Shown: piece by piece, positions 4,887-31,554 of the stretch
Numbering within the stretch: the first letter of the stretch is position 1
Layout of the letters: each line of letters opens with the position of its first letter
NCBI GenBank assembly: GCA_050230475.1
Contig: JBFLGF010000043.1
Span: 1-64,000 of the forward strand
Source: Ancylonema sp.
Lineage: Eukaryota
Length of the DNA: 64,000 nucleotides
Direction of reading: 5' to 3'
Position numbers and translations under genes: made by a program
The notes under the pieces: model-generated
Seen by the model: the letters and a program-made list of their open reading frames with translations, nothing else
Told to the model about the DNA's origin: nothing
Databases searched by the model: none

Positions 4887-5069
4887 CTTGCGATCCCGCC
4901 AAAATTGACTTCGTTTTTACGACAACCTTGATATAACGACACACTTTTTTGGAGCTTCTTTCTACAACACCCGCTCCGTCGCTCGGTAGGGCTTAAGAAT
5001 CTAGGCGAGCCCCAGCAGGTCTTCCATAGTGTGGAGTTGTCCAGCTGGGAAGGCGTCTGACTGTATGCG

Positions 5070-11535: not shown

Positions 11536-11920
11536 TGAGGCGGTTAGCATTGACTGAAGTAGTTTCTTTCAGTTTATTTAGTTTTTATATACTTTCTCAT
11601 CGCTTTGGTAACATGTTCGCATTAACTTTTTTGTGCCCATTGTAGTTGGAAGGCGGTGATGTGCAATATTGAAGTCAATATTTCTCTAAACTCGGATTTC
11701 CAAAGTTTGCCTCCTAAGGTGCAATCGTTGCCATTTTTACAAGTGCAAATCATAACGCCATGCGAAACTAAAAACGGAAAAAATGTATTTGGCTACACGC
11801 ACAATAAATAGTTCACTTTCTCCATCCTATAAACTACAAGTTGTAGTACATAACACTTATGGACAATAAGTTATGGGTAAAAATAATTATCTACGCCGCG
11901 ATGTTTCCACGATGATAGTA

Positions 11921-12761
11921 CAGTGCTCCGTCGATATAACGACCCTCTTTGTAGCGACAACCTCGATTTAACGACAGTTTTTTGGAACTTTTTTAAAATC
12001 TATATGAAATCGCCCTCGATATAAGCATAACGACACTCTATATAATGACAAATTGTTTTAGATATTTGTTAATGAATGTCGTTATAGTGTGTATATAACG
12101 ATATTAGTCGCAGATAACGATGTATGGAAATCGAGAAAAAACTAGAAACCTCATGAACGACACCTCAAATTATTTACAACGTGTTCTAGTTGTTTCCAGA
12201 TATCATATCAAGAGGACGCCGCCTCTGTCCTCCTCGGATGGTCCAGATTTAAGCTCTTGTATATGTAGCAGCAGTTCCTCGTGGGTTGCGAAGCACTCAC
12301 AAGTTACACTCATTCAATGTTAACGTTAACAACTGTTAAAAAATGCCCAAGTTGTTCATTGTTCCAATCGTCCACTGCTTCTACTCCATGTCCAACAAAA
12401 AGTGCGTGTCCGGTGTTGCTTTGTAACAACCTTAATAGCTTCCCAACTCTCCTCGTAAAGTTTTGTGGTATATTTTGTCCATCCGCATGTATTGGTATCA
12501 TGACGCACTTGTATAGCTCGTATATCAACACACACACACACACACACACTGAATTGGATAATCATGCCAAGGCAACTTACTCTAGGAAACACATAATAAA
12601 CACATTTGCTTATTCACTTTGCTTCATTCGCAAAGTCCCTCGATACAAGGACAAAGATTTCAGATTATAATAGTAAATGTCGTTACACAGTGTATAACGA
12701 CACCTCGGTATAACGACACTTTATTGGGGGGACAAAAAGTCGTTATATCGAGGGAGCAATG
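11921..12761 (+). mobile_element. Complete non-autonomous Tc1/mariner (pogo/Tigger-like) element
   Basis: TIRs cagtgctccgtcgatataacgac / gtcgttatatcgagggagcaatg; TA on both sides (11919-20, 12762-63). Confidence 0.85.
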
Positions 12762-12880: not shown

Positions 12881-13999
12881 TCAGTGATGTACCGGGACGA
12901 CAAATATGTATGCAAGCGACGTATTCCAAACGCGTACGTACGGAATACGTGCGTACGGCGAAAGCTGCAAACGGCGTTTGCAAATGCACATGATTTGAAA
13001 ACTTTCGAATTTGCAGATGTTCGGCAAATGTCAGCATCGTATTTCTTTATTATATCGGTAGTACCGTACCAGCCAGAGATAACGCGCCAGCAAATCGGAA
13101 AATTGATTATTAATAGTAGGCTCCAAACAGTTGCGCCAGCCAAAGTTGAATTAATTAGTACGCGCCAAGAGTGTGCGCTAGGCAAATTTTAATTGATAAA
13201 AATGATCTAAAAAATAGTTGCGCCATGTGTTTTCCTTATTAATTAATATGATCCAATCCAACTTGCGCCATTATATAGGGACATGATGGAGCTTTCAACC
13301 CTTGGGTTCTGGGCTCCTCGATCCCAGCGACCTTCCAAAATGGGCGAAAGACCGCTTTCCGTACACGCGCCCGGGGTTCCGCAGCTCGAAGCCCGCGGGC
13401 GTGAAGCTATTCTTCATTACAAGCACCTCTCGACATTATAACTATTAAAATTTAATTTTCGATGTGAGATCAGAATATTCGCTAAATTATGTTGTTGCGA
13501 CAAAATTTATTCGATTTTAATTATTTATTTGCGCCAATAGAGTGCGCCGACGTGGTCAAAATAATTAATTTAGTACGCGCCAAAAACGTGTGCGCCAGGC
13601 AAAATGGTAATTATTTTTTTGGCGCGTTATCTTTGGCTAGTACGGTACACTTCCGGTAAGTGAAGTATGAAATTTTGTAAGACTCGTCATCATTGGTTCA
13701 TGACGTTCACCATTAAAACGTAACCAATATTTTGTGAAACTTTACAAACTGAAAAAAAAAGAAGCTATCGCATCCGTACACGTTTGCCGCATTTCACGGA
13801 CGCATTTCAAGCGTTAGTAGTCGCAAACGTTTGCATCCGTTCAGTCCGTACACGTTTGCCGCATTCCACGGACGTATTCCGGATGTTTGCGAGCAAATCC
13901 GTACGACGTTTGCATTTTCTAGGGACGACAGATTGCTTTCGGACCCGTGCGGAAAACGTGCCGTACGGACTACGGGCCCCGTCCAGGTGCATCATCTGA
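12881..13999. mobile_element. Degenerate TIR element hosting a nested MITE
   Basis: Left tcagtgatgtaccgggacg resembles the reverse complement of right cgtccaggtgcatcatctga; subterminal cgtacgg/ccgtac repeats. Confidence 0.5.
13064..13645. mobile_element. Tc1/mariner-type MITE (CCGTA TIRs, TA TSD)
   Basis: TIRs ccgtaccagccagagataacgcgcc / ggcgcgttatctttggctagtacgg; TA at 13062-63 and 13646-47. Confidence 0.85.
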
Positions 14000-14134
14000 G
14001 GGGATCACAAATCAGCATTCACAATCGCGAAAACCGAGAGTGTACAATACTTGTATGACTTATGCGGACCTATCATTGATATATAATGTGTTCCATTATG
14101 TTTTAAGAAACGCCTCTGTTTTTTTTTCCCCCCA

Positions 14135-14310
14135 CCGCCGTCCCACCGGTCCAACCGCCAAATAATGGCGGTCGGACGGCGGAATCGCGGCTGGACGGCG
14201 GAATCGCGGTCGGGTGGCGGAAACCCGGCCGGGTGGCGGCCGGGGCGGGCGGAGAAGGTCGGCGGGCGGCCGACCGCCGACCGCCACCGATTCTGGCGGG
14301 TGAGGCCCAT
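14135..14310. repeat. GC-rich MITE-like remnant (family of 11170-11535)
   Basis: Reverse-complement similarity to 11281-11400. Confidence 0.45.
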
Positions 14311-15289
14311 ACTTTTGGGCTCTGGTGTTCCAAGCTGCCTTTTTTAAAACAACATACAAAAATTACAGAGCTCTTGTTATAAACAGAACATTAGTGGTTT
14401 AACAACATCTATTTTTAAGAATGTACTGTCAAACTGGTGGGCTGTGTTAATGCTACTATGGTGCAGCCAGAGCCGAGAAAACCACAAAACACCACTTTCT
14501 TTTTTAAGTTTTTTTTAAGTTTTTTTTTTTTTTCCCGGTAAGGGGTAAAAATGAAAGGCATTTAGTCGACAAGAAGCGTGGGTGTTTCCAATGCTGGTGT
14601 TTCAAGGCTGTCGTACCTATATCGATCGTGTACGGCTACACGTGCAAGCACTACACCGAATAGGCACACCGTACACATCGAGACTATAACAAGGTCCACT
14701 CGACCGTACAAGCTAGTACATAGCAAGGCCATCTCTCTAGGCACACTCCGTACTCGCAAAACCGCGCCTAGACGGCATGCAGTTACCGAGCAGCGCTCCC
14801 CATCACCGCGCCTAGACGGCATGCGGTGCCGCAACTTGTACGAACACAACGCGCTTCAAATTAATGCTCGCTCCCCCCCCCAAGACGGGGAAAAACTCCC
14901 GCGACCCCGGCTTGGTAAATCACCGAGAAAATTTGTGTTTGATCTGCACTTCCCATCATTGCCAACTACCGTTTGCACAATGGTTAGAACACCTACTCCT
15001 CCAAGATATTGGTGGGTTTGGGGTAGCTAGCCCCTCACCCCACACTTATCTAGAGGAGTTGGTCAAAAATCACCCACCAAACAAGTTCCCGCAAGTTTAG
15101 TGTGTTACCACCAAAGGATTCACCTTTCACCTTTGGTCTCTAGGCCTCAAAAACTTGATTGAGCCGTTGCGCCTCATGCGCCAACCTCCTCTCACTTCTC
15201 AATGTTTTTATTGACTTAGTGAATTGAGGTAAGGTTAGTGTCACACTTCTCATAGAAGTTGACCAATCACACTTCCTGCAAAGTTGATT

Positions 15290-15630
15290 ATTGCCCCTCA
15301 TGGAGGTCTTCAATGCCTCCGGCAAAGGCATCAGCCAATCCATTGCATAATTGCCTCTCATAGAGGTCTTCAATGCCTACGGCATTGACACATGTCAATA
15401 CATTGCACTTGCCCCTCATGGAGGTCTCATGCCCCTCATGGAGGTCTTATTAGATACCTCCGGCAAAGGCGTCAGCCAATCCATTGCATATCTGTGATAT
15501 GGTATGGAACACCATTATCACCATCTCATGCAATGTGTCCGATGTTTCATTGCATGGTTCCGATGTGGGGTTCAATGCTCTTTTCATACAATGGTTCCAT
15601 TGTTACATTGCATGGTTCCGATGTAGAGTT
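15290..15630. repeat. Direct repeats in the 3' non-coding region of the DNMT-gypsy element
   Basis: tgcc(c/t)ctcat(g/a)gaggtct occurs 4 times; cctccggcaaaggc.tcagccaatccattgcata twice; ttgcatggttccgatgt twice. Confidence 0.85.
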
Positions 15631-15662
15631 GTGACTACTTCACTCTGAAATAAGTAGCTCAC

Positions 15663-15800
15663 CTAGTGTCGAGGACAAGTCCAGCTCCCTCCGGCACTCC
15701 TAGGGTGGTGTTAATTGTCAAACACCACGTGTGATACCCCTGGTTACATTTGCCGCACAGCACCATCCGCTTCGGGACCGCAACCCACAAACCCGGCAAT
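15663..15800 (-). pseudogene. PHD finger at the C-terminus of the retrotransposon integrase (two frameshifts)
   Basis: Joined reading HCRVCG.../KRMVLCGKCNQGYHTWCLT...GVPEG/WTCPRH*; PHD ligand spacing plus the conserved Trp. Confidence 0.85.
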
Positions 15801-17164
15801 GTATTGTTTCCCCGCGATCATACAACTCCGGGTAGACCCTCTTGTCTCCCACCGGTACAGTGCAGTGATCAATGTGCTTCACCTGCTCCTGCATCGTCGT
15901 CCCATCTCTACCCCCAAGAACTGTTATCCGTGAGTCTCTAAGCTCCACTATCCTCAAGATGTGTGGCCTCGTGTTGACCTCCAGGGAGCTAGCCGTTGGC
16001 CGCTTCAGCAGCACGAAGTCTCCAACCTTGAACTTCGCCTATGGCCTATCCCACCCTCCTCCACGGACTAGCTTGTATCTCTCCACCTCCCTTTGCTGGG
16101 CAATCGCCAGGTTCCTGAATGCCAGTGGCAGAACTTCCTGAAAGATCTGGCCCCTCCTATCTAGGAACACTTTCATGGCCTCCACCCCTTGAGTCATCAA
16201 AGACTCTCTCCTCCTCGTCCCGGATTCGAGCCTGAAAGATCGGCTCCCTTCCAAAAAGCATGAAGTATGGCGAGTAGCCTAGCGACTTTTGCTTGGACAG
16301 CCTGTAGCCCATAGCTACGGAAGGCAATAGTTCATCCCACTGCTCCCCACCTCCCTCAAGCAAGCACTTTTTGAGTGCTTTCTTCATTGTCTGCACCATC
16401 CTCTCCGCCAGCCCATCTGACTGCGGGTGATCCCTGGCTGCAGTCCTGTGAGTGATCTCATAGCGGGCCAGGAGTGTCTCAAACTCTCCTCGAAACTCAC
16501 TACCCTGATCTGTGATCATCTCCCCTGGTGCGCCATACCTGGACAAGATCTGAGACTTGAACTAGTATGCCACCTCTGCGGCCCTCTTGGAGGTTGTTGG
16601 GATGAGCTCCACCCACTTGGTGATTAGCTGTATGCACACCAGTACATATCTGTTCCCCCTCTCCGTCTCCTCCATTGGCCCCGCAAAGTCTACCCCCCAT
16701 CTATACATAGGTCCCTTGATGGGAAGCGGCCGAAGGTTCTTCCCAGACTCTCTAAAAGCAGCCTTGCCCCGAGCGCAACTCATACACTCCTTCACCACTT
16801 TCGCCACCATCTCCACCATGCCTCTCCACCAATAGGTCTTCCCCAGTAGGTATGCTACTCTCATGACCCCAAAGTGGCCCATCTCCTCATGCACTTCTTT
16901 CACCAACCCCTCCCTCTCAGGCGGTCTGGGGATCACTAGCATCCTCCCTTTCTCTCCCACCTTGTACAGGCTGGTTCCCAGCCACCTGTACTTGGTCCCC
17001 CTCCGGTACACCCGATCTCTCTTCAGAGCATCCCACTCCTCACTGTGCTTGCCAGCCTGCAGGTACTCCAACAAGTGTGTGTCAGCCCACACCTCTCCTG
17101 AGGCTGCCTCGGTGGTCTCATCCACTTTCTCCTGTTCCCCCACTCCTAATGCCATCATGGCCAA
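15801..17164 (-). pseudogene. Ty3/gypsy integrase (disrupted)
   Basis: HEEMGHFG...CMSC zinc-binding motif; WGVDFAGP, ITDQGSEF, GLAERMVQ (D,D35E); in-frame stop at ~16562 and frameshifts. Confidence 0.92.
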
Positions 17165-17219
17165 TAGAGTCTCAGGTCGGAAAGTGATATCACCCCGCTC
17201 TCAGTCAGGTACCTCAAGT

Positions 17220-18650
17220 CCTCCCATGGAATCTATGGGGAACTTGGAAAGGCAATCTGCGTTGCCGTTCTCTGCGCCTGCCGTGTGCTCCACCTTGAAG
17301 TCGAACTCTTGCAGCAGCAAAGCCCACCTCGCCAGCTTCCCGGACAACTTCTATGTCGACAGGATCCACTTGATTGGCTCATGGTCGGTCACCAATGTGA
17401 ACTGGTTTCCGATCAGGTACTGCTTGAAATGTGAAGTCGCCCACACTGCAGCCAAGCACTCCCCATCAAAACTATAATAGTTCTTCTCAGTTGGCTTGCA
17501 ACTTCTGCTGGCATAAGCCACAACATAGTCCAGCCCCCGCTCGTCCTTCTGCCCCAGGACTGCCCCCATCCCCTTCTGACTCCAGTAAGTAGCAAGGTAG
17601 AAAGGCTTGCTCCCATCTGGTCGCCTCAACACCCCAGCCGAACACAGCGCCTCCTTTAGTTTAAAAAAGGCCTCCTTTTGTTCCCCCCCCCACTCCTAGA
17701 CCTCTCCTTTCCACAACAGCTTGTTAAGCGGGAAGGCAATGGTGTTGAAATGCGGTACAAACTTGCGATAGTAGCTGAATAGCCCCAACGCCCCCCTTAG
17801 CGATGACAAGTCTGTAGGTGCTGGCAGATCCCTGACTGCCTTCACCTTCTCCTCTTGCGGCTGCAACCTTGCCGCAGTGAACCTGTGCCCCAGGAAATCG
17901 ATGCTCTCTACCGCAAACAGACACTTCCCTAGGTGCACCTTCAACCCCGCTGCTCTGAGTCGTCTCAAGACCTCTTGCAAGTGTCTCAGATGCTCCTCCA
18001 GTGTGCTGCTCCACACAATGATGTCGTCCATGTAACACCTCGCAAATGTCAGCCCCCCCAGAATGTGGTCCATCTGGCGCTGAAAGTAAGGCGGCGCATT
18101 CTTCAGTCCGAACGGCACCACGCACCACTCCCACAAGCATCCGCCTGGCTCCCCATAATGCTATCTTGGCACTGTCCTCCTCCACTAGTGGCATCTGATG
18201 GTACCCTCACCTCAGATCCACCTTGCTGAAGATCTTTGCCCCCTTCATGTCATCGAATATGTCCTCTATCAATGGCAGCAGGACTTGTCGAGTGGCGTCA
18301 ATGCGTTGATTGGCCGGTAGTCCCCGCACTTTCTGAAGTCAGTTTAGTTCCCCTCATCGTCCTTCTTCTTCACCACCACAGTAGCCGAAGCATACTTGGT
18401 CTGGACTGATTTCCTGATGAACTTTAGCTTCTCCAGCTTCTCGCACTACTTCTCCACAAACTCCCACTCTTTTTCCCCGAGTTTGTGCGGCGGCCTGTAA
18501 ACCCTCCCCTCTAACACCACCCCAATGCTCATTGGCTCTACCTTGAACTGCTCCAGATCCTCCATGCTGTAAGCAAATCGATCATTGTTCTCCCTCAGCA
18601 GCTCCAACACCAGCAGCTGGTCCCTTTCCTTTAACCCCCCCCAACCTTGA
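17220..18650 (-). pseudogene. Reverse transcriptase and RNase H (disrupted)
   Basis: FAYSMEDL, RPPHKLG, CGDYRPIN, VPFGLKNAP, CYMDD, IDFLGH. RNase H LATYWS (Asp to Tyr), GECLAAVWA, VTDHEP, ADCLS. Confidence 0.93.
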
Positions 18651-19779
18651 TTTTCTTGAAATTCTCAGAAAAAATAGGTTTTGGGTTTGAGATCCTACCC
18701 TTAGTGCTCACTCCTACCCCTTAATTTTTTTTACCATTCCCCCCAAACTCCCTCTATAAATCTTTTTTTATTATTTTTTTATGATTTTCTGAAGTTTCCA
18801 GTTGGGCCCCAACCGCCCCATCTCCAACCTCCCCCAACCGCTGCCTCCCCCCCAGAACAGCCATCTGCAGCTCTGCAGGCCTCAGTTCTACTCCAAATTC
18901 AGATTGCAATAGTGATATGGATAGCTCTTCCCCCCCTCTATGTTGTGTCAAATTCATGATATCCCCCCCCAAAACTCTTGACTGCAAACGCAAATCTTGG
19001 ATTTCAGATTTGGCCAAATCCAATTTACACTCAGAGTAGCAAAAAGGGCTGAAAATCTTTGATATTGAGTTTCTGAGTACATGGGGTAGCTTTTTGCAAA
19101 TCCCTACCTTATCCTCACTACCAGCTCGAAAACCTGCTTCTGGTTCCAAAACCCTAGGGTTTAACAGCTCTTTTTCTGAATTCTGAACAGAATTTTTGCC
19201 TTTTTGGCTGCCTGAGCTACCTAGCTCTCCTGGGCTGCACGATTTTCAAAATTCTGATCTGCTTAGTGATCTTGGATCCTTAGCCTCTTCCCTACCAGAT
19301 CTCAAAATTACAATTTTTTTTGGCCGGAGGTTCAAAATCGCCCCCTCAGCTTCTCCCTCAGCTATTTTTTTGTCGGGTAGGCAAGCTGGCAATGAGAAAA
19401 GCTGCCCTGATCTGCCCCCTTTGATTCTGGCTGCACCCAGCTATTTTCCTGGTTTTTCATGATGGCCTCTAGCTTTTCCCAAAGTTTCAGCTTCAGAATC
19501 GAAGTCTAGCAGCGCCTGCACCACTTTTTGTGCCTCCACCATCTCCCCTTCCCCTATGAGTCCAGCATACATTCCGTATGCTGGAGGGCTTTCCTTTTCA
19601 AATTCACTCCTATGGTTTTCACCATTGATATCCTGAGCTCCCCAGCTCCATTTCTGTGTGCCTTAGCCAGTTGCCCCCAGCCGCGCCCCAACCGCACCCT
19701 CCCGCAGCCCCACCTGGGCTGCGGCTGCCCCCCCCAACCCCTGATCTTTTCGGGGTTGGGTGGCAGCGCCTCCCTAGCT

Positions 19780-20780
19780 GCTCATGCTGGCTCCCCACAG
19801 AGCCCCCAGCCACCTCATGGTGTTGCCTTCCATGCACTTTCCTAGCCTCTCCGCTCGTTGTTTCGAGGAAACTCCCTCCGCCCGTGTGGTCCCCTCCGGG
19901 AACCCCAGCAGTTGCTCCTTCTCACCCACATCTGGCTCCTCCCACCTGAGGGTGTTGGTGTTGTACACTTGCCCCTCCCCTGGGTTCCCATCCTCCTGAT
20001 TTCGGAAGGCATAACTCCCCTGAAAGCTGACAATCCTCGGCATGAGGATCCTCTCCTCTCCCCGAAAATTCTTCACGACCTGAGGCGAGAAGTCGGTGAG
20101 TGTGCCTTGGGGATGTGATACTCCCTCAAGATCTCCCTCAACGGTGGGCTTGGGTGCAGATCCTGTGGAACTGCCTCCTGTAGTTCATTCCGGTCCATGA
20201 CGTTCGTCCAAAAATAGCGCAGCCGATGGCTGGCTGCTCCCAACCCCCCGGCGTCCATAACCACCCCCAGTCCAATGAAGGACTCTATTAGCCGTGCAGT
20301 CTTTTGCACCGACTCAGGCATCTTTGTCAGCTACCCGGGGTAGGTGTTCTCCAGAAAGTAAACTGGCGATCTGTCGTGGTGATGCTGCAGCCACCCAAGG
20401 ATGCGCACCAGATCGTAGAAATACTGGAATTGCCTATCGGCGTACCCCTCCTGCTTGCCCCCCCGGCTGATACTCTGGCACTCCCAGCCAGCCCCTAAAA
20501 TGTCCACCTCCCGGTTCTGCGCAATAAGGTTTACCAGCGCCATCTCCCCAATCAGCCCCACATCTTGTGGCAACCTCTTCTCCCAACCAATAAATGTCCC
20601 CCTGTTGATCGGGCCTGGGTATTCGAGGATCAACTTCTCGATCACCCCCTCGTTGATCCGGTTGGAGATTGGGCCCCGCTCGGCGCATGACACCAGCCGC
20701 ACCCTCAATCCTGCCGCCAAGGCTGCTCTCGTGGCGCCCAAACCAATAAAGGTCAACAATATGCACCCCCTCCTCCGCTA
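19780..20780 (-). pseudogene. DNMT3/DRM-like DNA cytosine-5 methyltransferase domain embedded in the retrotransposon pol region
   Basis: Ordered motifs: I VHIVDL/IGLG (frameshift ~20750); IV DILGAGWECQSISRGGKQEG (Cys codon 20478-80); VI YFLENT; VIII AASHRLRYFWTN; IX EKEQLLGFPEGTT; X RAERLGKCM. Confidence 0.9.
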
Positions 20781-21585
20781 CCTCCTCCTTCAGGCTCACG
20801 ACCCTGGTGTTAATTGGTGCTGCACCTCTCACTGCTGCCCCCACCCACTTCCGGGATCTTTGTGTTTTTACCTTTCCCAGCAAGCTCTCTCTCGCCTTCA
20901 ACAGCCTCAAAGCTGCCGCCACCCGACGTGCTGCATCCGCCCGCCGCACTTCCACCACTCGCAGATCTGCCTCACTAGGGGCTCCAGTCAGCTCCCCCAA
21001 CCGCGGTTGGGGCTGACTTTGCCGTGTGCCTTTCACAACCACCCCCCCCACCATCACCCTGGGGTCAGGTTGCACCACCCTCGTGTGCTTCCCCCAGCTC
21101 TGAATCTCCCCCTCCTCGCCCATTCCCAGCATCTGTTGCGGTTGGGGTTCCAACCGCGGTTGGCCCTCCTCCAACCGCAGTTGGGCGGTTGGCCCCCCCT
21201 CCCTTGGGCTATCTCTTAACTCTCTGACCGCCATGCCCTGAAATTTCTCCCAGGCTTCCCCATTACCCCCCCCATATCCCTCCTCAGCCCACCCCGGACT
21301 TTTTCCACCCATCTCCTCCTCCGGTAAGAGGTTGGCCTCATCGAGCGCCACCCCTCGAGCTATTTCCCCCTCCATATCCCACCCTCGTGTCGCCTGCTCC
21401 TCCATCTGCTCCAGCAGAGTGAGCAGTGCCAGATTCTGCACCTCCCCTTCCCACTCTAACTTCACCACTCCCTCACTCTCACCCCTTCCCATATCCCCCT
21501 CCTCCACCTCTTCCGACTCGTAAGAATTGTCGCACTCCGCATCCTCAAACTGGCCCTCCTCAGCCTCTGAGCTGTAGAGGTCAGA

Positions 21586-23229
21586 CTACATCTGAACCTC
21601 TCCCGACCACTCCCTCTGGATCCTCCCTAGTGCCATGGCCTGCATTGGGAGTGTTGAGCGCACTGCCCTGCACTCCTCCTCAGTCATCCTACCCTGTGCC
21701 GGTAAAACCCCTCTGATCTTCCCCCCCCCCTTAGCCGCTGAGCGATGGTAATCGACCCTCCATGTGAAGACCTCAACCCGTGAGTCATAAACCCCCCCTA
21801 TTGGTCCAATCACCTCTATCCCCAGTAGTATCTCGTAACACTCTGTGTCTACTACGAAAGCTACCTCCTCGTAAGTGGTTTCGTAGCGTGTTCCAGCAGC
21901 AGAGGTAACACGCAGCTTTTCCTTGGTCATGCGCTGACCCGTCGCCATCTTCCCCGCGGCCGTAACAAATGACACCCCCACTGTCATATGTTCCTCTGTG
22001 AGCCCCATACGCTTGGCCATCCAAGAGCTAATCATAGGTTTTGTAGCCCCCGAATCCAGAATCACCATTCCCAATGGTGATATGTCATTCACCACCAACT
22101 CCCTATTTTTCACTGGAAGTGTAGCCACACTCCAAGGCCCCTTCTTCCCCCCCCCGCCTACCCACCCTGCGTGTAATGGATCCCCCTCCACTAACGACCT
22201 CAGCCCCCCGTACTGATCCATATTTTGTTGTAAAACCTCTGCTTGTAGCCCGTGGAAGTTTCTTTCTAGGGTTTTAAATTTCTCTGCCAGCATGTTTGCT
22301 AGCAGCTCCCCTTGTGTTCCCAACCCCCTCCCCATGATCTGAATCATCTTTGCCTGGTCTATGATTGCCCCTGATTCAGCCAGCTTTTTGAGATCCCGTA
22401 CCACCTCCAACCTCCCCGTCATAATTGGCATCGTCTCTGCAAGTTTCCCGTCGAGGTACTTGCTGGCTGCCTCTAGTTCCACCAGTCTCTCCCTCTCGTT
22501 GGCACTATACACTACTTCCTGTATCCCCTCCTCCGCCACCTCTATCGAAACTGGTTCTCGGCCGTATCTGCCGTACTCCGCCCGCCAGTCATAGGATCCA
22601 AACTGCAAATCTGCTGCCTCTTGCAGCGCTCTCCCCAGTGCAGTGTCCATTCCCGGAGGGTATCCCATAGGGACCCTCACAGTACTACTCTCCCCGACAA
22701 ACCCTGCTAGCGGACCTGTCGCCATTGCTGATGGTGGAGTTGTCACACCCGTGACACTCATCCCCGGTCGGATCTGAACTGCTGGCCCTCTATCCGCCCC
22801 CTCAGTCGGGTACAAAATATCACGCGGCTGAGTGTTGTGTGCGAAGATCACCCTCCTAGGTCGCCCTGGGCCCCTCCTCTCTGCCGCCGTTGCTTCCGCC
22901 GCACGGGCCCCAGCTGCTTGCACGGCCCTCTCTGCTGCATCTTCCTGCTCCAAACGCCGCCCCACGTTTTGGATCGCACGCCTCAAATCAGCTGCCCCCG
23001 GAGATCTTGGTCGTGTTCCCCCTTGAGCTGCACCCGCACTCTGGGGTCCCAGCCTACCCGCCAGGATGCTACCCTCGTCCCTCTCCGTGCTCCGCAGCCT
23101 CTCGGAAGCGCGCACGGGTCCACCACTCTCTCCCCCAGACCGCCCTCCCCGCGCGCGTGGCGCCATCATATGGAATGGTGGCCTGACGTGCACCATTGGC
23201 GCGTCCATGACAACCCACATCTCCCCCAC
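21586..23229 (-). CDS. Retrotransposon ORF segment containing the aspartic protease
   Basis: 547-aa ORF with VILDSGATKPMIS and the downstream YEILLG motif. Confidence 0.85.
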   Translation of the reverse strand: MGEMWVVMDAPMVHVRPPFHMMAPRARGGRSGGESGGPVRASERLRSTERDEGSILAGRLGPQSAGAAQGGTRPRSPGAADLRRAIQNVGRRLEQEDAAERAVQAAGARAAEATAAERRGPGRPRRVIFAHNTQPRDILYPTEGADRGPAVQIRPGMSVTGVTTPPSAMATGPLAGFVGESSTVRVPMGYPPGMDTALGRALQEAADLQFGSYDWRAEYGRYGREPVSIEVAEEGIQEVVYSANERERLVELEAASKYLDGKLAETMPIMTGRLEVVRDLKKLAESGAIIDQAKMIQIMGRGLGTQGELLANMLAEKFKTLERNFHGLQAEVLQQNMDQYGGLRSLVEGDPLHAGWVGGGGKKGPWSVATLPVKNRELVVNDISPLGMVILDSGATKPMISSWMAKRMGLTEEHMTVGVSFVTAAGKMATGQRMTKEKLRVTSAAGTRYETTYEEVAFVVDTECYEILLGIEVIGPIGGVYDSRVEVFTWRVDYHRSAAKGGGKIRGVLPAQGRMTEEECRAVRSTLPMQAMALGRIQREWSGEVQM

Positions 23230-24363
23230 TTAGAATCCCAGTTCCACTCCATTTACATCACCCTTTTCAGCCACCCCCATTGCCAACATCTGACGTGGGT
23301 ATCGAGGGCTGAAGAACTCCTCATCTCCCCTTCCTAGCCTGTCCTCAAACTCAGCAGCCCTCCTCCTTGGTGGCCCTGGCACCGCCATGGCCAACCCCTG
23401 ACGTGGCCGCTTGGCATCACGTGTCCCCCCCTGGGTTGTAGTTCTTGGGGCGAAGCTCCGGGTGCTTTGCCCAACTCTGCGACTCGGTGTGGTTCTGTTT
23501 GTCCCAGAAACTGCATGTTGCCCCCTCCGTCATGTGCACCCGTGGCATGGACATGGTCACCCCTCTCGCCGTCCCAAATCTGGCGGCGAAGGGTGCTTTC
23601 ACACCCTTACCACGTCCCGCTGCTGCCGTCTTGAGTGCCTCCCTCAGCCGCCCCGCCGTCTCCTCCCGCTTCCCTGTGGGACAGTTCGCAGCTTTGTGCC
23701 CCAGCCAGTCACAAGTGAAACACTTGACAAGAGTTTCCCCCCCCAGCCCTCCTCCTCCATTCCCTCCACCTCCACTCCCAACTCCTCCTCCTCCTCCTCC
23801 AATCCCAGATCCCCCCCCTCCTCCTCCTTCTCTTGGCTTCCCCTTCCCCTCCACCCTTCCCCCTCCCTCCTTTTTCCCCTCCTTCTGACTTGGCAACAGG
23901 CCAAACATCCGCAGCTCCGCATCCCGCGACATCTGCGCCCTCTCGTGGGAGGTGGCAATGTCTCTGATATCTGCCATACTCATCTTGGGAAGTCCTGCTC
24001 CATCCCGGCGCTGCTCTTCAGCCCGAAGCTTTGGGCCTACCACCCGCCGCAACCCTCCCGGCAAACAATCCTCATAAAAACACGTTGTCTGACGAGCGCT
24101 GACCATATGTGGAACGAGGTTAACAGTTATCCGGGACAGGTCCTCGTAGATGGAGTTTGCGGTAGCTCTTGCTGCTGGTCTGAAGTTCTGGAACTCCACT
24201 AACCATTCCGACCCCGCGGTTGCAAATCACGTCCTCAACCTCTGGAAGAATCCCTCGAGATCGGCTGTCTCTGCTTCCGGAGGTACTGCTGGAGGCTCCT
24301 GAAGTCCTAAGGTGAGTCGCATCAACTGCCAACTCGCCTTCTGACCATAGTATACGCGCCAGA

Positions 24364-24822
24364 TGTCAGGACCCTCGCTACAGTCACTAGGGCTCCCTAG
24401 CGAGGTCTCCACACTTAGCGCTATAGCGCTACTAGCTCAGTTTTCCCTATAGCGAGGTCTGTCCCTATATAGTGGGAGTTGTGTCCCTAGCGGCCGCCTG
24501 GCCCCTAGGGAGTATTCTGATGTGTCCTTAGCTCAGGAAGTTGTGCCGTTAGCCAGAGTTGCGCCGTTATCCATACCGTATTCAGAGTGAGTTATCCCAC
24601 TTGTAGTCTTGATTCAGACTTGAGCCAGTTTACTATATATAATCCATAAGAATGCCTTAAGAGCATTCCTATCAACTCAAGTACTTGCACTCCGATTTAT
24701 ACCACCACCATTTCACTCGGCTCACGCCATCTTGCCCTATCCGGCGTTTCGCCATCCTTTTGCTTATGTGCACATTGCGCGACTAGCTTGCTAGGGACGT
24801 CTTTTTGCATCCGTCCCTAACA
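24364..24822 (+). repeat. 5' LTR of the chromovirus (459 bp)
   Basis: tgtcaggaccctc...cgtccctaaca; direct repeat of 29448-29897. Confidence 0.95.
24634..24642 (+). promoter_or_regulatory. Putative LTR TATA box
   Basis: TATATATAA starts 32 nt upstream of the PBS-complementary 10-mer at 24666. Confidence 0.6.
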
Positions 24823-24824
24823 CT

Positions 24825-24834
24825 TTGATAGGAA
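24825..24834 (+). other. Self-priming-type primer binding site
   Basis: TTGATAGGAA lies 2 nt after the 5' LTR and is the exact reverse complement of TTCCTATCAA at 24666-24675; no TGG tRNA-type PBS is present. Confidence 0.75.
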
Positions 24835-24918
24835 CTTTTTTTGAAGTTTTTTTTTAGAATATTCTGAAATTGAACTTCATTCAGCCGCCTTCTTTTTCAT
24901 CTTACACCCATCCCACCA

Positions 24919-27900
24919 TGTCTTCTCCCAATTTAGACGAAGTCATGGAAGTCTTACGCCAGATGCAACCACTCTCAAGATGAAAAGTCCAGAGTTTTGG
25001 CGGATGAAAACAAGGAGATTAAAGGCAAATTTACAGAGCCTTCGGAACAGTTTGCTTATGAAACTAACTACATGGCTTCTACAATCGAGCCAGCCGCTCC
25101 ACAATATCAGCCTATCTCTACTCTCCAAGACCTGGTTCCATCTGACCCTCCTAAGTTTGATGGTACCTCCAAGCATGTCACTACATTCCGTAACCAGGTC
25201 CGCTCTGCTCAGGCTGGCCCCTAAGGTTCAGCAACCCGGTTTAAACCGTTCACTACGTGGCCAATCTACTATGAGTGGTTCTCTAACTGGACCTGCCTAT
25301 GAGTGGTTCTCTAACTACCTCGACGACAATGGGGACCTCCCGGACGGGTTTGGGGCAGTTCGGCTGCTGAAAGATCTCCAGGACTGCATCGGGGAGGACG
25401 ACACTCGCCTCACCAAAGAACGACACCTGCGCGAGCTCAGGCAAACGGGTTCAGTGTTAGACTTCACCGTCCAGTTCAGGGCAATTGTCAAGACTTTCCC
25501 CCCTTGGCCTGACCACCCCAGCATCTACACCTTCGAGAGATACTCAAAGTACAGGACCCCCCTGAAACTTTCTCTGACTACGTTACCTTTGTCAAGAAGG
25601 TGGAGAACAGCATGGCTGCCAGCAGGCTGGACCGACCCTCCAAACCTGCATACATCCCCCCCCAGGCCAGAGCTGCTGATCAGTCTCCCCAACAGGTCCC
25701 CTCTCTCCTGCAAATCGTCCCCATGGACATCGATGGAACCCGCCGCCAGGTCCTGAAGGTGGAACCAACTGAGATGGCTCGCCGCGTGGCTGGTCACTTG
25801 TGCCACTACTGGCCTGCCAGGTCATGACACTAGGACTTGTCCCAACAAGGGCAAGCCCCGCACCGTGCCCTTCTTGGATCTGCAGCCAAAAAACGACCAC
25901 CCCACACAATCCTAGGAGGGGTCTATGCGGGTCCCCTTTCCCTACCCTCCCCCTTTCCCCACCCCCGCCAACTCCTGCTGGCCTGCCAGTTACTACGGTA
26001 CCCACTCCCACCCATACCTGTCAGGGTGTTGATCGACTCCGGGGCATCCGGCAACTTCATCGATCCCCAGATCCTGGCAGACTACAACCCTCCCTACCCA
26101 CCCCCATACCCAGCCTATCCCGGTCGAGCTCATTGATGGCAGCCCTCCAGCTGCTGGCCCCATCACCTCCTACTTCTCAGCCCAACTCAGATCCCCAGGC
26201 AACCACACAGAATCCATTAGTCACCCGACTGGCGCACTGCCGAGTCACGTGGGCGTCTTGGGCTTCCCTTGGCTGCACAAGCACAACCCCACCATCAACT
26301 GGCAGACGGGCACCCTGTCCCTCACCAGCCCCCAGTGTGCTGCTGAGTGCCTGCTCTCCAGTTCTATCCCCCCACCCCTTCCCCCTCCCGATCCCCAGCC
26401 CCCACTTGCAGTGTTGGACGCTGTGCAAACTTCTCCAGACCCCGCCCTGTTAGTTGCGCTACCTCCGGAGTACCACGACTTCGCAGACGTGTTCTCTGAG
26501 CAAGCTGCAAACACCCTTCCCCCCCACCCGTCATACGACTTGGCAATCCCCCTCCTGCCTGGCAAGGAACCCCCCTGGGGGCCGATCTACTCTTTGTCTG
26601 AGCTTGAGCTGGCTACGCTCAAAACGTATATCAAAGACAACCTGGCGAACGGCTTCATCAGGCCGTCCACCTGTCCGGGCGGGGCTCCTATTATGTTCAT
26701 TAAGAAGCCAAATGGCAAGCTCCGGTTATGTGTAGACTACCGGCAGCTCAATGCGGTGACAATCAATAACCGTTGCCCTCTACCCCTCATACCTGAGCTG
26801 CTGGATCGCCTGCATCGCGCAAAGATCTTCACTAAAATTGACCTGCGAAATGCCTATCACCAGCTGCGGGTCAAGGAGGGGGAATACAAGACCGCGGCGT
26901 TCCGCTGTCGTTACGGGCATTTCGAGTATCAAGTCTGCCCGTTCGGGCCGACCAATGCCCCAACAGCCTTTCAATCCTTTATCACGGACGTGTTTAGGGA
27001 GTATCTGGACGTCTTCCTAGCAGGCATGCTCGACGACATGATCATCCACTCGGAAACCCCTGAGGAGCACGTCTCCCACGTCTGAGCAGTCCTGGCAGTC
27101 CTACGGAAGCACACGCTGTATGCGAAGATGGAGAAATGCTAGTTCCATGTGGACACGATCAGCTTCCTAGGCTACCGGATCTCTCCTGCAGGCGTGCAAA
27201 TGGACCCCGCAAAGCATCTCTCCTTGACTGGCCACTTCCCCAGTCAGTCAAGGAAATGCAGTTCTTCTTGGGCTTTGCTAACTTCTACCGCAAGTTCATA
27301 GCTACTCTACGGTGGCCTGCCCCCTTACCTCCCTGACCCGCAAGGGGGCCAAGTTTGAGTGGATGAAGCGGAGACAACCTTCCACGCACTCAAGGCGGCA
27401 TTCACCACCGCGCCTGTCCTGCGACACTTTCAGCCATCCCTCCCCCTTACCATTGAAGCAAATGCTTCTGACTTCGGTCTGGGCTGTGTCCTCTCCAAGA
27501 CGGACGAGGCACGCGAGCTCCACCCCCTCGCCTACTACTCGCGGAAGTTTTGCGCTGCGGAATTGAACTATCCTATATATGACAAGGAGTTGTTGGCGAT
27601 AGTGGCTGCCTTCCGCCAGTTGCGGGTCTACCTCGAAGGTGCAGCGCATCCTATCGTGGTCTACACGGATCACAAAAACCTCGAGTACTTCCAGCTGCGA
27701 GGACGACCTCTAGGAGGCATGCACGGTGGGCCGAGACGCATGGCGGCCTACGATTTCTCTATCATCTACCGGACGGGGTCCAGCAATGGCAAGCCGGACG
27801 CCCTCTCCCGCAGACTTGACTGCTTGCCGCCAGCCCAGCTCCCCCACCCTATCCTTCCCGATGCAGCTATTTTGCCTATTCCCCCTCTACGCGCTGCAGC

Positions 27901-29440
27901 TATCCTCTTGTCCCCGTCTGACCCACTCCTACCTACCATCAAGGAGGCTCAGTTGGCGGACCCAGCTCTTCAAGCTATTGCTACGGACCTGCTAAACAGA
28001 CCTGCTCAGGAATCAAACCTGAGACCACCCTCAGGCAGGTCATCATCCCTCTACACACTCCGAGAGGGCCTACTTTACCGCAGCGGGCGCCGGGCGATTC
28101 CCCCTACTGCTGCTCTCCTCATACTCGAAATTCTAAAGCAGTATCACGATGCGCCTATGGCAAGCCACTTCGGGACGGCACGGACGCACGCGCTGCTGGC
28201 TTAGTATTTTTACTGGTCGGGACTGTCTAAGGCGGTGGAAGACTACGTGCGCACATGCGACGTCTGCGCCCGGAACAAGCCGGTGCGCCACGCGCCATAT
28301 GGCCTCCTATCCCCCCTACCTATCCCTGAGCAGCCCTGATCTAGCGTGTCCCTCGACTGGATTACCGACCTCCCTCCTAGCGACTACCACGATGCTATAC
28401 TGATGGTGGTGGACCGGCTCACCAAACAGGCGCACTTCATTCCAACCACCAAATCCATGGCGGCACCTGAGGTCGCTGCATTGTTTCTCCAACAAGTGGT
28501 GCGCCGGCACGGGTTGCCGTCTAGCCTCATCAGCGACCGCGATCCCATCTTCACCAGCCATTTTTGGCGTCGGCTGCTGGAGCTGTTGGGCATCCATGCC
28601 AACCGCTCCACTTGCTTTCCACCCGCAGACGGATGTCCAGACGGAGCGCCTCAACTCAGTCCTGGAGCAGTACCTGCGTATTTACATCGACTAACAACAG
28701 TCTGATTGGGCGAGACTTTTTCCGATGGCGGAGTTTGCTTATAACAACTCCAAGCATTCCGCCACCACCCTCTCCCCGTTCTTCACCAACTACGGGTTCC
28801 ACCCGCGAATGTCGCTGCTTCCCCCCACCCCCGATTCCCCAACCCTTGCGGCTGACGATTTCGTCAAAAATATCCACGACGCTAACGATGTCATCCACGC
28901 GGCGCTCCACCAATCTCAGCGCGCCATGGAGACGTCTGCCAATCGCAAACGCAAATCTACCCTGATTCTCGTCCTAGGCCAGAAAATTTGGCTGTTACGA
29001 CGCCACGTCGGCTCCACCCGTCCTTCGTCAAAATTGGATGTCCGTCGTCTGGGCCCTTTCCCGGTGATTGGCCAGATCGGGACATCGGCTTACCGTTTGG
29101 AGCTGCCGTCCTCCGTCAAAATCCTTCCCGTCTTCCACGTCAGCCTCCTCGAGCCACACACTGCCAATACGTTTTCAGGCCGTGTCGTGGCGCCTCCTCC
29201 TCCGGTCGTGGTGGACGGCGAGCCTGAGCATGAGGTGGCCACGGTCCTCGATTCCAGATCGTGCGTGGCAAGATCTTTTACTACGTGGATTGGGTCGGGT
29301 TCGATGAATTTGAGCGCTCTTGGGAACCTGCGAACCTGCCGACAACATGGGCAATGCTGCTCACGCGGTCGCAGAGTTCCATGCCACATTTCCCGATCGG
29401 CCTTCACCGCCTCCTTCTTCGCGTTCCGCGCCTTGAGGGG
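24919..29440 (+). pseudogene. Chromovirus gag-pol (gag, PR, RT, RH, IN, chromodomain) with multiple stops and frameshifts
   Basis: PPKFDG, ELRQTGSV, LIDSGASGNF, LGFPWLHKHNP, LRLCVDYR, MLDD, NYPIYDKELLAIV, SLDWITDLP, SDRDPIFTS, VFHVSLLEP; chromodomain HEVATVLDSR/YYVDWVGF..SWEP. Confidence 0.93.
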
Positions 29441-29447
29441 GGGGTAC

Positions 29448-29897
29448 TGTGAGGACCCTCGCTACAGTCACTGGGGCTCCCTAGCGAGGTCTCCACACTT
29501 AGCGCTAGAGCGCCACTAGCTCAGTTTTCCCTATAGCGAGTTCTGTCATATAGTGGGAGTTGTGTCCCTAGCGGCCGCGGGAGTATTCTGATGTGTCCTT
29601 AGCTAAGGCACCTTAGCTCAGGAAGTTGGTTATCCAGACTTGATGTGTCCATACCGTATTCAGAGTGAGTTATCCCACTTGTAGTCTTGATTCAGACTTG
29701 AGCCAGTTTACTATATCTAGTCCATAGGAAGGCCCTTAGAGCATTCCTATCAACTCATGTACTTGCACTCCGATTTATACCACCCCCATTTCACTCGGCT
29801 CACGCCATCTTGCCCTATCCGGCGTTTCGCCATCCTTTTGCTTATGTGCACATTGCGACTAGCTTGCTAGGGACGTCTTTTGCATCCGTCCCTAACA
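29448..29897 (+). repeat. 3' LTR of the chromovirus (450 bp)
   Basis: tgtgaggaccctc...cgtccctaaca, preceded by the PPT and followed by the TSD. Confidence 0.95.
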
Positions 29898-31554
29898 CCA
29901 GACCACTCTCACTACTTCCACCACTTGCGCTATTGCCAGTGCTGGGTTGTCAGGGTCATGCGGGTCAATGGACCGGCGGTAGTCATCCATAACCAATCTT
30001 GCCTGCCCCTCTACGTGGCCAGACATCCGCTTGAGGAACTCAAACTGACCATATTTCCCACTAAGGAATTTCTGAAGATTCCGCTTCTCTGCCTCCCACA
30101 TATCTTTCATATTCTGGATAAATTGTCGCTGCGCCACCTCTCCTCCTCTTGAATACTTGGGCACAGCCAAAGTACTTTCCATCTCTGCCTCCTCCTCTAA
30201 CCCCGCGAAATGCACCAACGAATAAGCTGCACCCACAGGTACCGGCGGTACAAAAACCGGTGGTTGATATACGACAAGCTGAAAATTCTGCACTTCGGCC
30301 TCTCCCTCTGAGTTTGCCGAACCTTGAGGGTCAACTGGTCCTGCACTAGAATCAGATATATTGCTTGACGATTCACTACCACCCCCGCCTCCCCCACTAT
30401 CCACTCTCCGCACCAAACGTCTCTTCTCGTCGCGGGACCAGGCAGACATGGACTGCCTGACTCAGAATGAATCTAAAAACTACCACCTTGGGTCGTTCAA
30501 ATTCAACTACGCGCTGGAAATCTCACGAGTATCAGGTGTCAATAATTTTACAAGCGTAGCATTACGCCAGAGTAAACGTACTGGGCAAGATATATAACGC
30601 TGTCTCTGGACGCGTCGAACGCACTATCGTACGCAGCAAATGATCACCGCTACAATATTCAGCATCCGCTCAATGATATCAGCCTTTAACATCGCCGTAG
30701 TCAAAGCTCAACGTACTCACAAAACGACACGTCACCGCTCTTGCCAAAGATTAGTTGGTATGCACTCTGGCGTAATGCAGCCAGAGTGCTCATGCATCAG
30801 GATACATAGTCCGAAAGTCCAACAAGACACTTCCGGCTCACTTGTACTTTCCGTACGCTAGACTATAATCTACGCCGTACGCATGCGTCCGATCGGATGC
30901 ATCTAGTCCAAGCATATCCTACCCAACGTCGCAATCACTAACGATCACAATCGACCAATCACATTCATGCCAGCATGGCACTATATGACCCCACAACCCG
31001 GGAGCCGGACCCGACCACGTTTCTCTGGAACGTCCCGTGGCCTGACATCCGCTATACTGAACCGCAACCAAAAGTCAAACGGGTAGTAACTATCCCTCGG
31101 TACACCAATCGAAGATCGATCGCTCTATCGAACAATTAATATTCCGACGGGCCCCTGCGGGCTCCCGCCCGCTGCCGCTCTATCGCGAACAAATAAATAA
31201 CCCAGCCCCCAGCCGCCTACCGCCCTACCGCAGACCCGCATGCTAGCGGCGTCAACCGTACCCGGGTCAATACCCGGCCGGGACCGTACGGCACACTACG
31301 TGCCGCACGTGCAACTGGAGTAGGTATGGCAAGGAATTATTTCTTCAAAATGAGAAGGCAGTTTTGTTTTTTTTTTTTTTAAAGGCCAAAGGGCTCACTT
31401 GGTGTTTGAAATAGCTTCGGTCGTCTTTTCTTTTGATGTTGAACACCAAGCCAGTAAACAAGTTGTTTACTTCTTTCTTCTATTGGTTCTTGTTGTTTTT
31501 ATTCTTCCCAAAAAAGAAGAAGAACTCAACCTTTTTTGAATTTTTGGCCTTTCA

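What the first reader, a model, noticed from the sequence alone, without database searches (positions are those of the whole stretch)
15663..15800. Hidden PHD finger on the integrase of the same element: chromatin reader plus DNA-methylation writer in one retrotransposon
Seen: the ORF track misses this domain because of two frameshifts. Re-joining gives CRVCG...KRMVLCGKCNQGYHTWCL...VPEG.WTCPRH*, and the last ligand is His instead of Cys. It sits where chromoviruses carry a chromodomain. Established: PHD fingers commonly read the H3 tail (H3K4 state), and animal DNMT3 is guided by the PHD-like ADD domain. Inference: the element may couple histone-guided integration with de novo methylation, recreating the ADD-DNMT3 logic inside a polyprotein.
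Basis: partly seen in the sequence, partly recalled or inferred. Interest (0 to 1): 0.78.

Follow-up and report, generated by a model that had tools for sequence, protein, structure and literature searches.

The report
PHD-tipped integrase in methyltransferase-carrying retrotransposon
A broken copy of a jumping gene, likely from a plant-lineage alga, has a real PHD zinc finger at the end of its integrase that likely docks new copies on chromatin, and it also encodes a DNA methyltransferase that likely works separately; the parts are already known, and only this exact pairing seems undescribed.

Summary
15663-15798 (minus strand) is a PHD finger, broken by two frameshifts, ending the integrase of a decayed Ty3/Gypsy element (gag-PR-DNMT-RT-RH-INT-PHD). 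Other copies keep the frame. Six clusters of relatives about 50% identical have an intact RT/RH-INT-PHD frame. The last zinc ligand is His in 32 of 33 relatives, so it is a family trait. Two relatives carry half a DNMT3-like domain in the same frame as the PHD. The ADD-DNMT3 reading is not supported: it is not an ADD, it lies 1,050-1,325 residues from the DNMT beyond RT, RNase H and integrase, and in four clusters the PHD frame holds no DNMT. It lacks the H3K4me3 tryptophan and most K4me0 acids but keeps the H3 Ala1/Arg2 contacts. Likeliest: a chromodomain-like tether on the integrase, the DNMT methylating the cDNA separately. Gypsy-DNMT3, PHD-bearing Gypsy and chromodomain-plus-DNMT elements are all published; I found no paper on this pairing. 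This scan noted the same thing on other DNA at least four times. New variant of a known kind; interest 0.35.

The parts
15663..15798 (-). PHD finger, Cys4-His-Cys2-His variant, last domain of pol, followed directly by the stop; broken by frameshifts near 15774 and 15685
15799..16190 (-). Integrase C-terminal region (helix, then a conserved segment of about 75 aa that sits where Ty3 integrases have their SH3-like domain; the fold is not confirmed); one stop at 16041
   Evidence: 64% mean identity between clusters; no SH3 family hit
16160..17200 (-). Integrase: H2C2 zinc domain (16921-16760) and DDE core, with stops
   Evidence: (PF17921 E 4.8e-14; PF00665 E 1e-3)
17354..17695 (-). RNase H
   Evidence: PF17919 E 5e-31
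17699..18634 (-). Reverse transcriptase, with stops and two frameshifts
   Evidence: (PF00078 E 3.9e-21)
18635..19773 (-). Low-complexity linker of about 380 codons between DNMT and RT; covered by contigs of other copies, so part of the family; not scanned for domains
19774..20777 (-). C5 cytosine methyltransferase, DNMT3/DRM-like, catalytic Cys present; broken by a stop and two frameshifts
   Evidence: PF00145 E 6.2e-5, 23 bits, cut-off 22; 23 of 23 weak hits are DNMT3A/B/C; DRM-type 6 of 9 weak hits
21814..22092 (-). Aspartic protease (within ORF 23229-21586)
   Evidence: PF13650 E 3.2e-7
23417..24358 (-). 3' part of gag with CCHC zinc knuckle (23725-23678)
   Evidence: PF00098 E 0.009, under the cut-off
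24364..29897 (+). Unrelated nested Ty3/Gypsy element inserted into gag; LTRs 95-97% alike; 5-base target duplication
29903..30461 (-). Probable 5' part of gag (by position; no Pfam hit)
14609..14881 (-). Polypurine tract (14881-14871) and a CpG-rich 3' terminal stretch of about 260 bases ending in CA at 14609; family terminus; no copy found at the 5' side
   Evidence: (43 contigs with unrelated flanks at 14609 in X1)

Best explanation
This is a real PHD zinc finger that ends the integrase of a Ty3/Gypsy family that also encodes a DNMT3-like methyltransferase; it likely stays on the mature integrase and likely tethers it to nucleosomes through the free start of histone H3, while the methyltransferase likely acts separately on the element's own cDNA. 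Shown: the domain, its place at the C-terminus of an RT-RH-INT frame, conserved zinc ligands with His last, and a DNMT half in the same frame in one cluster. Inferred: (1) the element's protease cuts Pol so that the PHD goes with integrase and the DNMT does not; (2) the finger binds H3 Ala1 and Arg2 (pocket residues and the Asp/Glu after Cys3 are kept), has no cage for H3K4me3, and so would not favour active promoters, steering insertions toward chromatin without that mark much as chromodomains do in chromoviruses; (3) the DNMT methylates CG in the cDNA in the particle or around integration, as proposed for other retrotransposon DNMTs. The two domains would serve one end, a quiet and harmless insertion, without one guiding the other. 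My odds: real conserved integrase-terminal PHD 0.97; chromatin tether 0.6; DNMT not guided by the PHD 0.8. This copy is dead.
For: Domain and place; 6 of 6 longer hits of P0002 end in PHD after rve. Conservation: in 17 distinct fingers seven of the eight ligands are invariant and Cys3 is kept in 16 of 17, while mean identity of the finger between six clusters is only 59% (integrase core 80%, RH-INT linker 57%); branch lengths of 0.6-0.7 between lineages. Fold: two AlphaFold2 models give the finger pLDDT about 80; best Foldseek hits are ATXR5-H3, UHRF1 and BAZ2A-type fingers, many solved with unmodified H3; best sequence hits are KDM5 PHD1, CHD4, ATXR5. Residue mapping to KDM5A PHD1 (bioRxiv 10.1101/715474, passages; numbering carried over by me from Cys1): Ala1 pocket L309/P331/W335 = columns 14/36/40, kept as Val/Leu/Ala, Pro 17 of 17, Trp 17 of 17; the essential Arg2 contact D312 = column 17, Asp/Glu in 15 of 17; the K4me3 Trp column (two before His, placement recalled) is Gly in 17 of 17. 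Precedent: PHD in the Gag-Pol of Gypsy-7a_cRei, with insertions 2.6-fold enriched between genes (PMC9940879, passages); cDNA methylation proposed for retrotransposon DNMTs (PMC5890265, section 11). CpG observed/expected is 0.48 in RT-PHD against 0.76 in the nested Ty3 and 1.2 in a host exon, CHG not depleted.
Against: No binding or insertion-site data. The acidic residues that H3K4me0 readers use for Lys4 are mostly missing: acid four residues before Cys1 only in the window's own subfamily, acid at the E305/D306 place in 4 of 17, D315 place Gln/Asn in 17 of 17; net charge 0 to +5 and an invariant Arg in the loop (criteria from PMC3241642 and PMC5415848, passages). The Ala1-pocket Trp and Pro are also core residues of most PHDs. 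One close solved finger with the same His ending and a basic loop, PHF12 PHD2, does not bind histone tails and is structural. Cleavage sites were not mapped. CpG loss can come from host methylation and age. The K. nitens DNMT showed no activity in yeast (inconclusive by the authors' account). The host is not identified.
Confidence: 0.5

Rival explanations
1. The finger is not a histone reader: it is a structural or protein-binding zinc domain (like PHF12 PHD2), or a basic module that helps integrase hold DNA or a host tethering protein.
For: Same Cys4-His-Cys2-His ending and basic loop as PHF12 PHD2, which has a structural role and does not bind histone tails (bioRxiv 10.1101/2023.01.26.525585, passages). 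Net charge 0 to +5, invariant Arg in column 7, Lys4 acids mostly absent.
Against: Best sequence and fold matches overall are H3-tail binders, led by ATXR5, whose loop is also not acidic; the Arg2-binding acid is kept in 15 of 17; terminal position matches the chromodomain precedent.
Confidence: 0.27
2. One reading: the PHD guides or licenses the DNMT as ADD does in animal DNMT3, coupling histone-guided integration with de novo methylation at the insertion site.
For: Both domains lie in one element and, in P0045 and P0047, in one reading frame. The DNMT is DNMT3-like and the finger lacks a K4me3 cage, as ADD does. A cut DNMT could still travel in the pre-integration complex.
Against: Not an ADD (no ADD hit to E 10; no preceding GATA-like finger, feature recalled). 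1,050-1,325 residues with three enzymes in between, where ADD directly precedes the catalytic domain (recalled). Own protease present. In clusters 2-5, 18 proteins start 165-194 residues before the RT motif and none holds a DNMT; the longest listed members are 1,055-1,092 aa. PHDs occur in retrotransposons without reported DNMT.
Confidence: 0.12
3. The finger reads H3K4me3 and steers insertions to active chromatin.
For: H3K4me-reading (PYGO-like) PHDs are fused to retrotransposons in cnidarians (bioRxiv 10.1101/2021.11.30.470311, section 10).
Against: The cage Trp column is Gly in 17 of 17 and no aromatic residue is conserved just before Cys1; the top hits are led by fingers of the unmodified-H3 type.
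Confidence: 0.05
4. Chance motif or a captured, decaying host fragment with no role in the element.
For: This copy is broken at two places and needs three frames.
Against: Intact in all six relative clusters with conserved ligands; shuffled-window control at most 2.2 bits against 25.8.
Confidence: 0.01

Closest known systems
KnitGypsy-Dnmt3 / 'Gypsy-DNMT3' of streptophytes (PMC5890265; so named in bioRxiv 10.64898/2026.05.21.726589)
   Same: Ty3/Gypsy element with an unpermuted DNMT3-like domain in the Pol frame together with RT and RNase H.
   Different: No PHD is mentioned in the main text (0 occurrences) or in the three readable supplements; Fig. 4c with the domain drawing and the main supplementary PDF could not be seen and may show one. 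The A-coding-B-A-B repeats described there were not found in this copy. No direct sequence comparison was possible.
Chromoviruses (Ty3/Gypsy with a chromodomain at the integrase C-terminus, e.g. MAGGY; known to me through PMC6673714 and bioRxiv 10.1101/2021.11.30.470311)
   Same: A chromatin-reader domain ends the integrase.
   Different: PHD, not chromodomain; no H3K9me cage; targeting untested here; lineage not placed against reference RTs.
Gypsy-7a_cRei of Chlamydomonas reinhardtii (PMC9940879)
   Same: Gypsy Gag-Pol with a PHD finger, proposed to limit harmful insertions; 2.6-fold intergenic bias.
   Different: No DNMT in the legend's domain list; that list puts PHD between RH and INT, so the position may differ (figure not seen).
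EpiLTRs of Cymbomonas and Euglena (bioRxiv 10.64898/2026.05.21.726589, section 8)
   Same: Chromatin reader and cytosine methyltransferase in one LTR element.
   Different: Chromodomain rather than PHD, an adenine methyltransferase as well, DNMT sister to DNMT4, in Cymbomonas appended at the 3' end of pol.
ADD-DNMT3 of animals (features recalled)
   Same: PHD-like finger without a K4me3 cage and a DNMT3-type enzyme in one translation product.
   Different: ADD is a distinct domain next to the catalytic domain in the mature protein; here an ordinary PHD lies over 1,000 residues downstream, on the integrase.
PHF12 PHD2 and KDM5 PHD1 / ATXR5 / UHRF1 PHD fingers
   Same: Sequence and fold of the finger; His as last ligand is shared with PHF12 PHD2.
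   Different: The family keeps the Ala1/Arg2 contacts of KDM5-type readers but lacks most of their Lys4 acids.

Membership tests
PHD finger (PF00628) | Score above the Pfam cut-off | tested here: met
   25.6 bits for the window's middle frame; 32-44 bits for intact relatives; cut-off 24
PHD finger (PF00628) | Eight zinc ligands in Cys4-His-Cys3 spacing | tested here: met
   Spacing kept; eighth ligand is His, not Cys, in 32 of 33 relatives, a variant also seen in PHF12 PHD2
PHD finger (PF00628) | PHD fold | tested here: met
   Model pLDDT about 80 over the finger; ATXR5 PHD TM (target) 0.78, rmsd 2.0 A, E 7.7e-4
H3K4me3-reading PHD | Aromatic cage with the invariant Trp | tested here: not met
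   Gly in 17 of 17 at that column (criterion PMC3241642; column placement recalled)
Unmodified-H3 (K4me0/R2) reading PHD | Ala1 pocket and acidic Arg2 contact | tested here: met
   Pro and Trp 17 of 17; Asp/Glu after Cys3 15 of 17
Unmodified-H3 (K4me0/R2) reading PHD | Acidic residues before Cys1 or acidic wall for Lys4 | tested here: not met
   Only the window's subfamily has an acid four before Cys1; acidic wall in 4 of 17
Unmodified-H3 (K4me0/R2) reading PHD | Measured binding to H3 tail | not testable with these tools
   No H3 sequence was available for a complex prediction; needs a binding assay
ADD domain of DNMT3 | ADD profile match; GATA-like finger before the PHD part | tested here: not met
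   No ADD family among Pfam hits to E 10 for 7 relatives; no extra Cys cluster upstream in the sequences; ADD features recalled
ADD domain of DNMT3 | Adjacent to the methyltransferase domain in the mature protein | tested here: not met
   1,325 codons apart in the window, about 1,050 residues in P0047
Chromovirus | Chromodomain at the integrase C-terminus | tested here: not met
   No chromo hit in the element's ORFs or in 34 relatives scanned
Chromovirus | RT phylogeny within the chromovirus branch | not tested
   No reference RT set on hand; the tree holds only relatives and one outgroup
Gypsy-DNMT3 (KnitGypsy-Dnmt3 type) | Ty3/Gypsy domain order PR-RT-RH-INT | tested here: met
   best PDB match of P0047 is Ty3 Gag-Pol, E 5e-95
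Gypsy-DNMT3 (KnitGypsy-Dnmt3 type) | C5 methyltransferase in the Pol frame with RT | tested here: met
   P0045 and P0047 carry the C-terminal half in frame with RT to PHD; no relative with the whole DNMT in that frame was retrieved
Gypsy-DNMT3 (KnitGypsy-Dnmt3 type) | DNMT belongs to the Dnmt3 clade | tested here: inconclusive
   All 23 and all 14 hits are DNMT3A/B/C but each is weak (E 0.3-2); DRM-type hits for the C-terminal piece; the N-terminal piece hits bacterial M.HhaI; no tree
Gypsy-DNMT3 (KnitGypsy-Dnmt3 type) | Split repeats A-coding-B-A-B | tested here: inconclusive
   No repeat between the 3' end and the 5' side above shuffle level; the 5' end was not delimited and the copy is decayed
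Gypsy-DNMT3 (KnitGypsy-Dnmt3 type) | Sequence kinship with the K. nitens element; streptophyte host | not tested
   K. nitens sequences not retrieved; nearest Atlas cluster for the INT tail and PHD is mostly Streptophyta among the 7 members with a phylum, a hint only
EpiLTR | Chromodomain plus DAM plus DNMT | tested here: not met
   No chromo or adenine-methylase hit in 18 window ORFs or relatives; the DNMT-RT linker was not scanned

The most novel reading that the evidence does not exclude
The cut DNMT3-like enzyme stays in the pre-integration complex; the integrase's His-ended PHD docks it on nucleosomes whose H3 tail lacks K4me3, so each new copy is both placed in quiet chromatin and methylated as it lands: a transposon that rebuilds reader-guided de novo methylation from two separate Pol products.
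Probability: 0.12. Interest if true: 0.75.

Novelty: new variant of a known kind. Interest (0 to 1): 0.35.

Why it matters
Why retrotransposons carry their own cytosine methyltransferases is an open question (PMC5890265, section 11). A conserved reader on the integrase of a Gypsy-DNMT3-type family gives a handle on it: where do such elements land, and is self-methylation tied to the landing site? The family is high-copy in this organism, so insertion-site and methylome mapping are feasible, and the 45-residue finger is easy to assay. If it binds H3 it would be a PHD counterpart to chromovirus targeting, proposed several times but, in the papers I read, not demonstrated. The surprise is limited: every part, and reader-plus-writer LTR elements as such, are in print.

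Tried and rejected
No whole genome is held for this window, so no intact copy in the same assembly could be sought. DNMT piece 20334-20777 against longer proteins: 848 candidates, none at E 0.001 (weak evidence). Viral contigs: 27 pattern hits, none related. Metagenome contigs: 2 loci of 196 stretches; L001 is an unrelated host PHD gene, L002 (a 31-residue match) was not examined. Homolog searches were limited to 2,000 aa, so a whole Pol of about 2,520 codons could not be a hit. No RNA holder listed: no evidence either way on expression. AlphaFold2 of the integrase core to PHD was poor outside the finger (mean pLDDT 37.6) and the segment before the finger was unresolved in both models; a profile comparison with the nested element's SH3 domain did not align that segment, so 'SH3-like' rests on position. 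Tree of 12 rows: window element, cluster 6 and clusters 2-5 unresolved at the base, outgroup branch very long, so DNMT loss cannot be polarised. No 5' LTR copy or target duplication found. No Rfam hit in 14000-32000, no tRNA. No complex prediction was sent: no H3 sequence and no whole intact DNMT were on hand. My recollection that Selgy/Phygy elements carry a PHD was wrong as far as PMC6317226 goes (0 occurrences). The REM1 paper (Perez-Alegre 2005) was not read. Host genes gave no taxon-specific family.

Full report
1. The observation. The middle piece passes the Pfam PHD cut-off unaided (25.6 bits against 24). A profile from 17 distinct fingers of more distant relatives gives it 25.8 bits; 20 shuffled windows reach at most 2.2. 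Two close natural relatives, P0001 and P0002, carry the finger whole and align across both breaks; P0002 links it in one frame to the integrase C-terminus. Contigs from four public DNA runs (at most three samples) show other copies with four more bases at 15774 and one more at 15685. None of the 20 substitution rows falls in a ligand codon, but rows near the right end of that stretch can be missed (15803, listed, is absent), so this says less about Cys1 and Cys2.

2. The element. The finger ends a decayed Ty3/Gypsy element: gag (split by an unrelated nested Ty3 at 24364-29897 with a 5-base target duplication), protease, C5 methyltransferase, a low-complexity linker, RT, RNase H, integrase, PHD. 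From the start of the protease ORF to the stop are about 2,520 codons, with 11 in-frame stops before the final one in the segments read and several frameshifts. Contigs of other copies cover all 30 bins of 14500-24500 in three of four runs (27 in the fourth), so DNMT, linker and PHD belong to one high-copy family; no contig spans the whole stretch. The 3' end is at 14609, where 43 contigs run on into unrelated flanks; a polypurine tract precedes a 260-base terminal stretch that has no copy at the 5' side. The DNMT keeps its catalytic Cys; its pieces hit only DNMT3A/B/C (23 of 23, each weak) or mostly DRM-type enzymes (6 of 9). The host is not identified; intron-bearing eukaryotic genes flank the element, a glacier metagenome holds family relatives, and the nearest Atlas cluster is mostly Streptophyta, so a streptophyte alga is my inference.

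3. Relatives. A search with P0002 among proteins of 381-2,000 aa gave 6 hits of 703 candidates, 50-54% identical; all 6 end in PHD after the integrase core. Their clusters hold 52 proteins, all listed; I scanned 28 of the 46 further members. Of the 54 proteins stored, 33 have the full finger; 32 end in His and one (P0002) in Tyr; the only one with the preceding motif and no finger is a 77-aa fragment. So the His is a family trait; PHF12 PHD2 has the same ending. In 17 distinct fingers seven ligands are invariant and Cys3 is kept in 16, at 59% mean identity between clusters: the mark of selection on the fold. P0045 and P0047 begin with the C-terminal half of the DNMT (33-42% identical to the window's pieces, E 1e-19 to 1e-25; 41%) in the same frame as RT, RH, INT and PHD. 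That confirms reader and writer in one frame, though no protein with the whole DNMT was retrieved. Against a general polyprotein link: in clusters 2-5, 18 proteins start 165-194 residues before the RT motif, about where the DNMT ends in P0047 (211 before), none holds a DNMT, and no listed member exceeds 1,092 aa although some were seen on contigs of 7-10 kb. Whether a DNMT lies upstream in another frame or is missing could not be seen. The 2,000-aa limit biases the search toward such shorter frames.

4. What the finger may read. Sequence and fold matches are led by fingers that bind the unmodified H3 start: KDM5 PHD1, CHD4, ATXR5, UHRF1, BAZ2A. Carrying KDM5A PHD1 numbering over from Cys1: the Ala1 pocket Pro and Trp are invariant and the essential Arg2 acid is Asp/Glu in 15 of 17; the K4me3 Trp column is Gly in 17 of 17; but the Lys4 acids are mostly absent, the loop has an invariant Arg and net charge is 0 to +5. 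The finger therefore likely cannot read H3K4me3, may bind Ala1-Arg2, and may instead be structural like PHF12 PHD2.

5. Mechanism. Most likely the protease frees integrase-PHD from the rest of Pol (general Ty3/Gypsy knowledge; sites not mapped), the finger tethers the integration complex to nucleosomes, and the DNMT methylates the cDNA on its own, as proposed in PMC5890265. CpG is depleted in the coding region (0.48 against 0.76 in the nested element), which fits methylation but not its source. The ADD analogy fails on domain type and on distance (1,325 codons; about 1,050 residues in P0047). A looser coupling inside the pre-integration complex is not excluded (0.12).

6. What is known, and what I saw of it. 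PMC5890265 (passages, sections 9 and 11, the spreadsheet supplement, a word search of three supplements; figures and main supplementary PDF not seen): KnitGypsy-Dnmt3, DNMT in Pol, no PHD in the text. bioRxiv 10.64898/2026.05.21.726589 (passages, section 8): EpiLTRs with chromodomain, DAM and DNMT. PMC9940879 (passages): PHD in Gypsy-7a_cRei Gag-Pol. PMC6673714 and PMC8557442 (passages): PHDs are widespread in retrotransposons. bioRxiv 10.1101/2021.11.30.470311 (passages, section 10): many PHD-transposon fusions. PMC6317226 and PMC6338049 (passages): no PHD. bioRxiv 10.1101/2023.01.26.525585, 10.1101/715474, PMC3241642, PMC5415848 (passages): PHD binding rules. Gao 2008, Perez-Alegre 2005, Kapitonov and Jurka 2003: not read, cited through these. 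Searches turned up no paper describing an integrase-terminal PHD together with a DNMT3-like domain; most listed papers were seen only as listings, and bioRxiv supplements were closed. Earlier notes of this scan report the same pairing on other DNA four times; they are AI notes, not support.

7. Verdict. Observation confirmed; interpretation partly supported. A conserved, His-ended PHD on the integrase of a Gypsy-DNMT3-type family: a new variant of a known kind, function untested. Interest 0.35.

Noticed in passing
window 14609-14881 and 30460-31400: The element has a polypurine tract and a clear 3' terminus ending in CA but no matching repeat at the 5' side and no target duplication; could be 5' loss or the split/permuted repeat layout described for KnitGypsy-Dnmt3.
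   Followed up: partly
window 24364-29897 (+): Nested Ty3/Gypsy element with LTRs 95-97% alike, 5-base target duplication, Tf2-type SH3 domain; no chromodomain was called in the ORF scanned, although its tail resembles the start of one by eye.
   Followed up: partly
proteins P0004-P0007 and their cluster members: In four clusters the RT-RH-INT-PHD frame starts at shared Met positions about where the DNMT ends in cluster 6: possibly a programmed frameshift or separate ORF after the DNMT, or DNMT-less lineages.
   Followed up: partly
window 20490-20475 region (DNMT motif IV): The catalytic motif has Glu where M.HhaI has Pro before the Cys; not checked whether this is the family state.
   Followed up: no
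window 18635-19773: The DNMT-RT linker is about 380 codons here against about 110 residues in P0047, purine-rich, CpG observed/expected 0.30.
   Followed up: no
window 15287-15630: Short imperfect tandem repeats (60 and 47 bases) in the 3' untranslated part; laid depth there is about twice that of the coding region.
   Followed up: no
window 4253-4835 and 11918-12719; 13061-13648; 43839-44749: Dispersed inverted-repeat elements (MITE-like), one family present twice in opposite orientation around the RBM39-like splicing-factor gene.
   Followed up: no
window 5061-8900, 34485-34982, 48655-50447, 51855-55573: Host genes: RRM splicing factor (RBM39-like by eye), GNAT acetyltransferase, COG2, FtsH protease.
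   Followed up: partly
P0001: This relative joins a Copia-type fragment (SH3_retrovirus, weak) to the family's integrase tail and intact PHD, probably a nested-insertion chimera on a 767-base contig.
   Followed up: no
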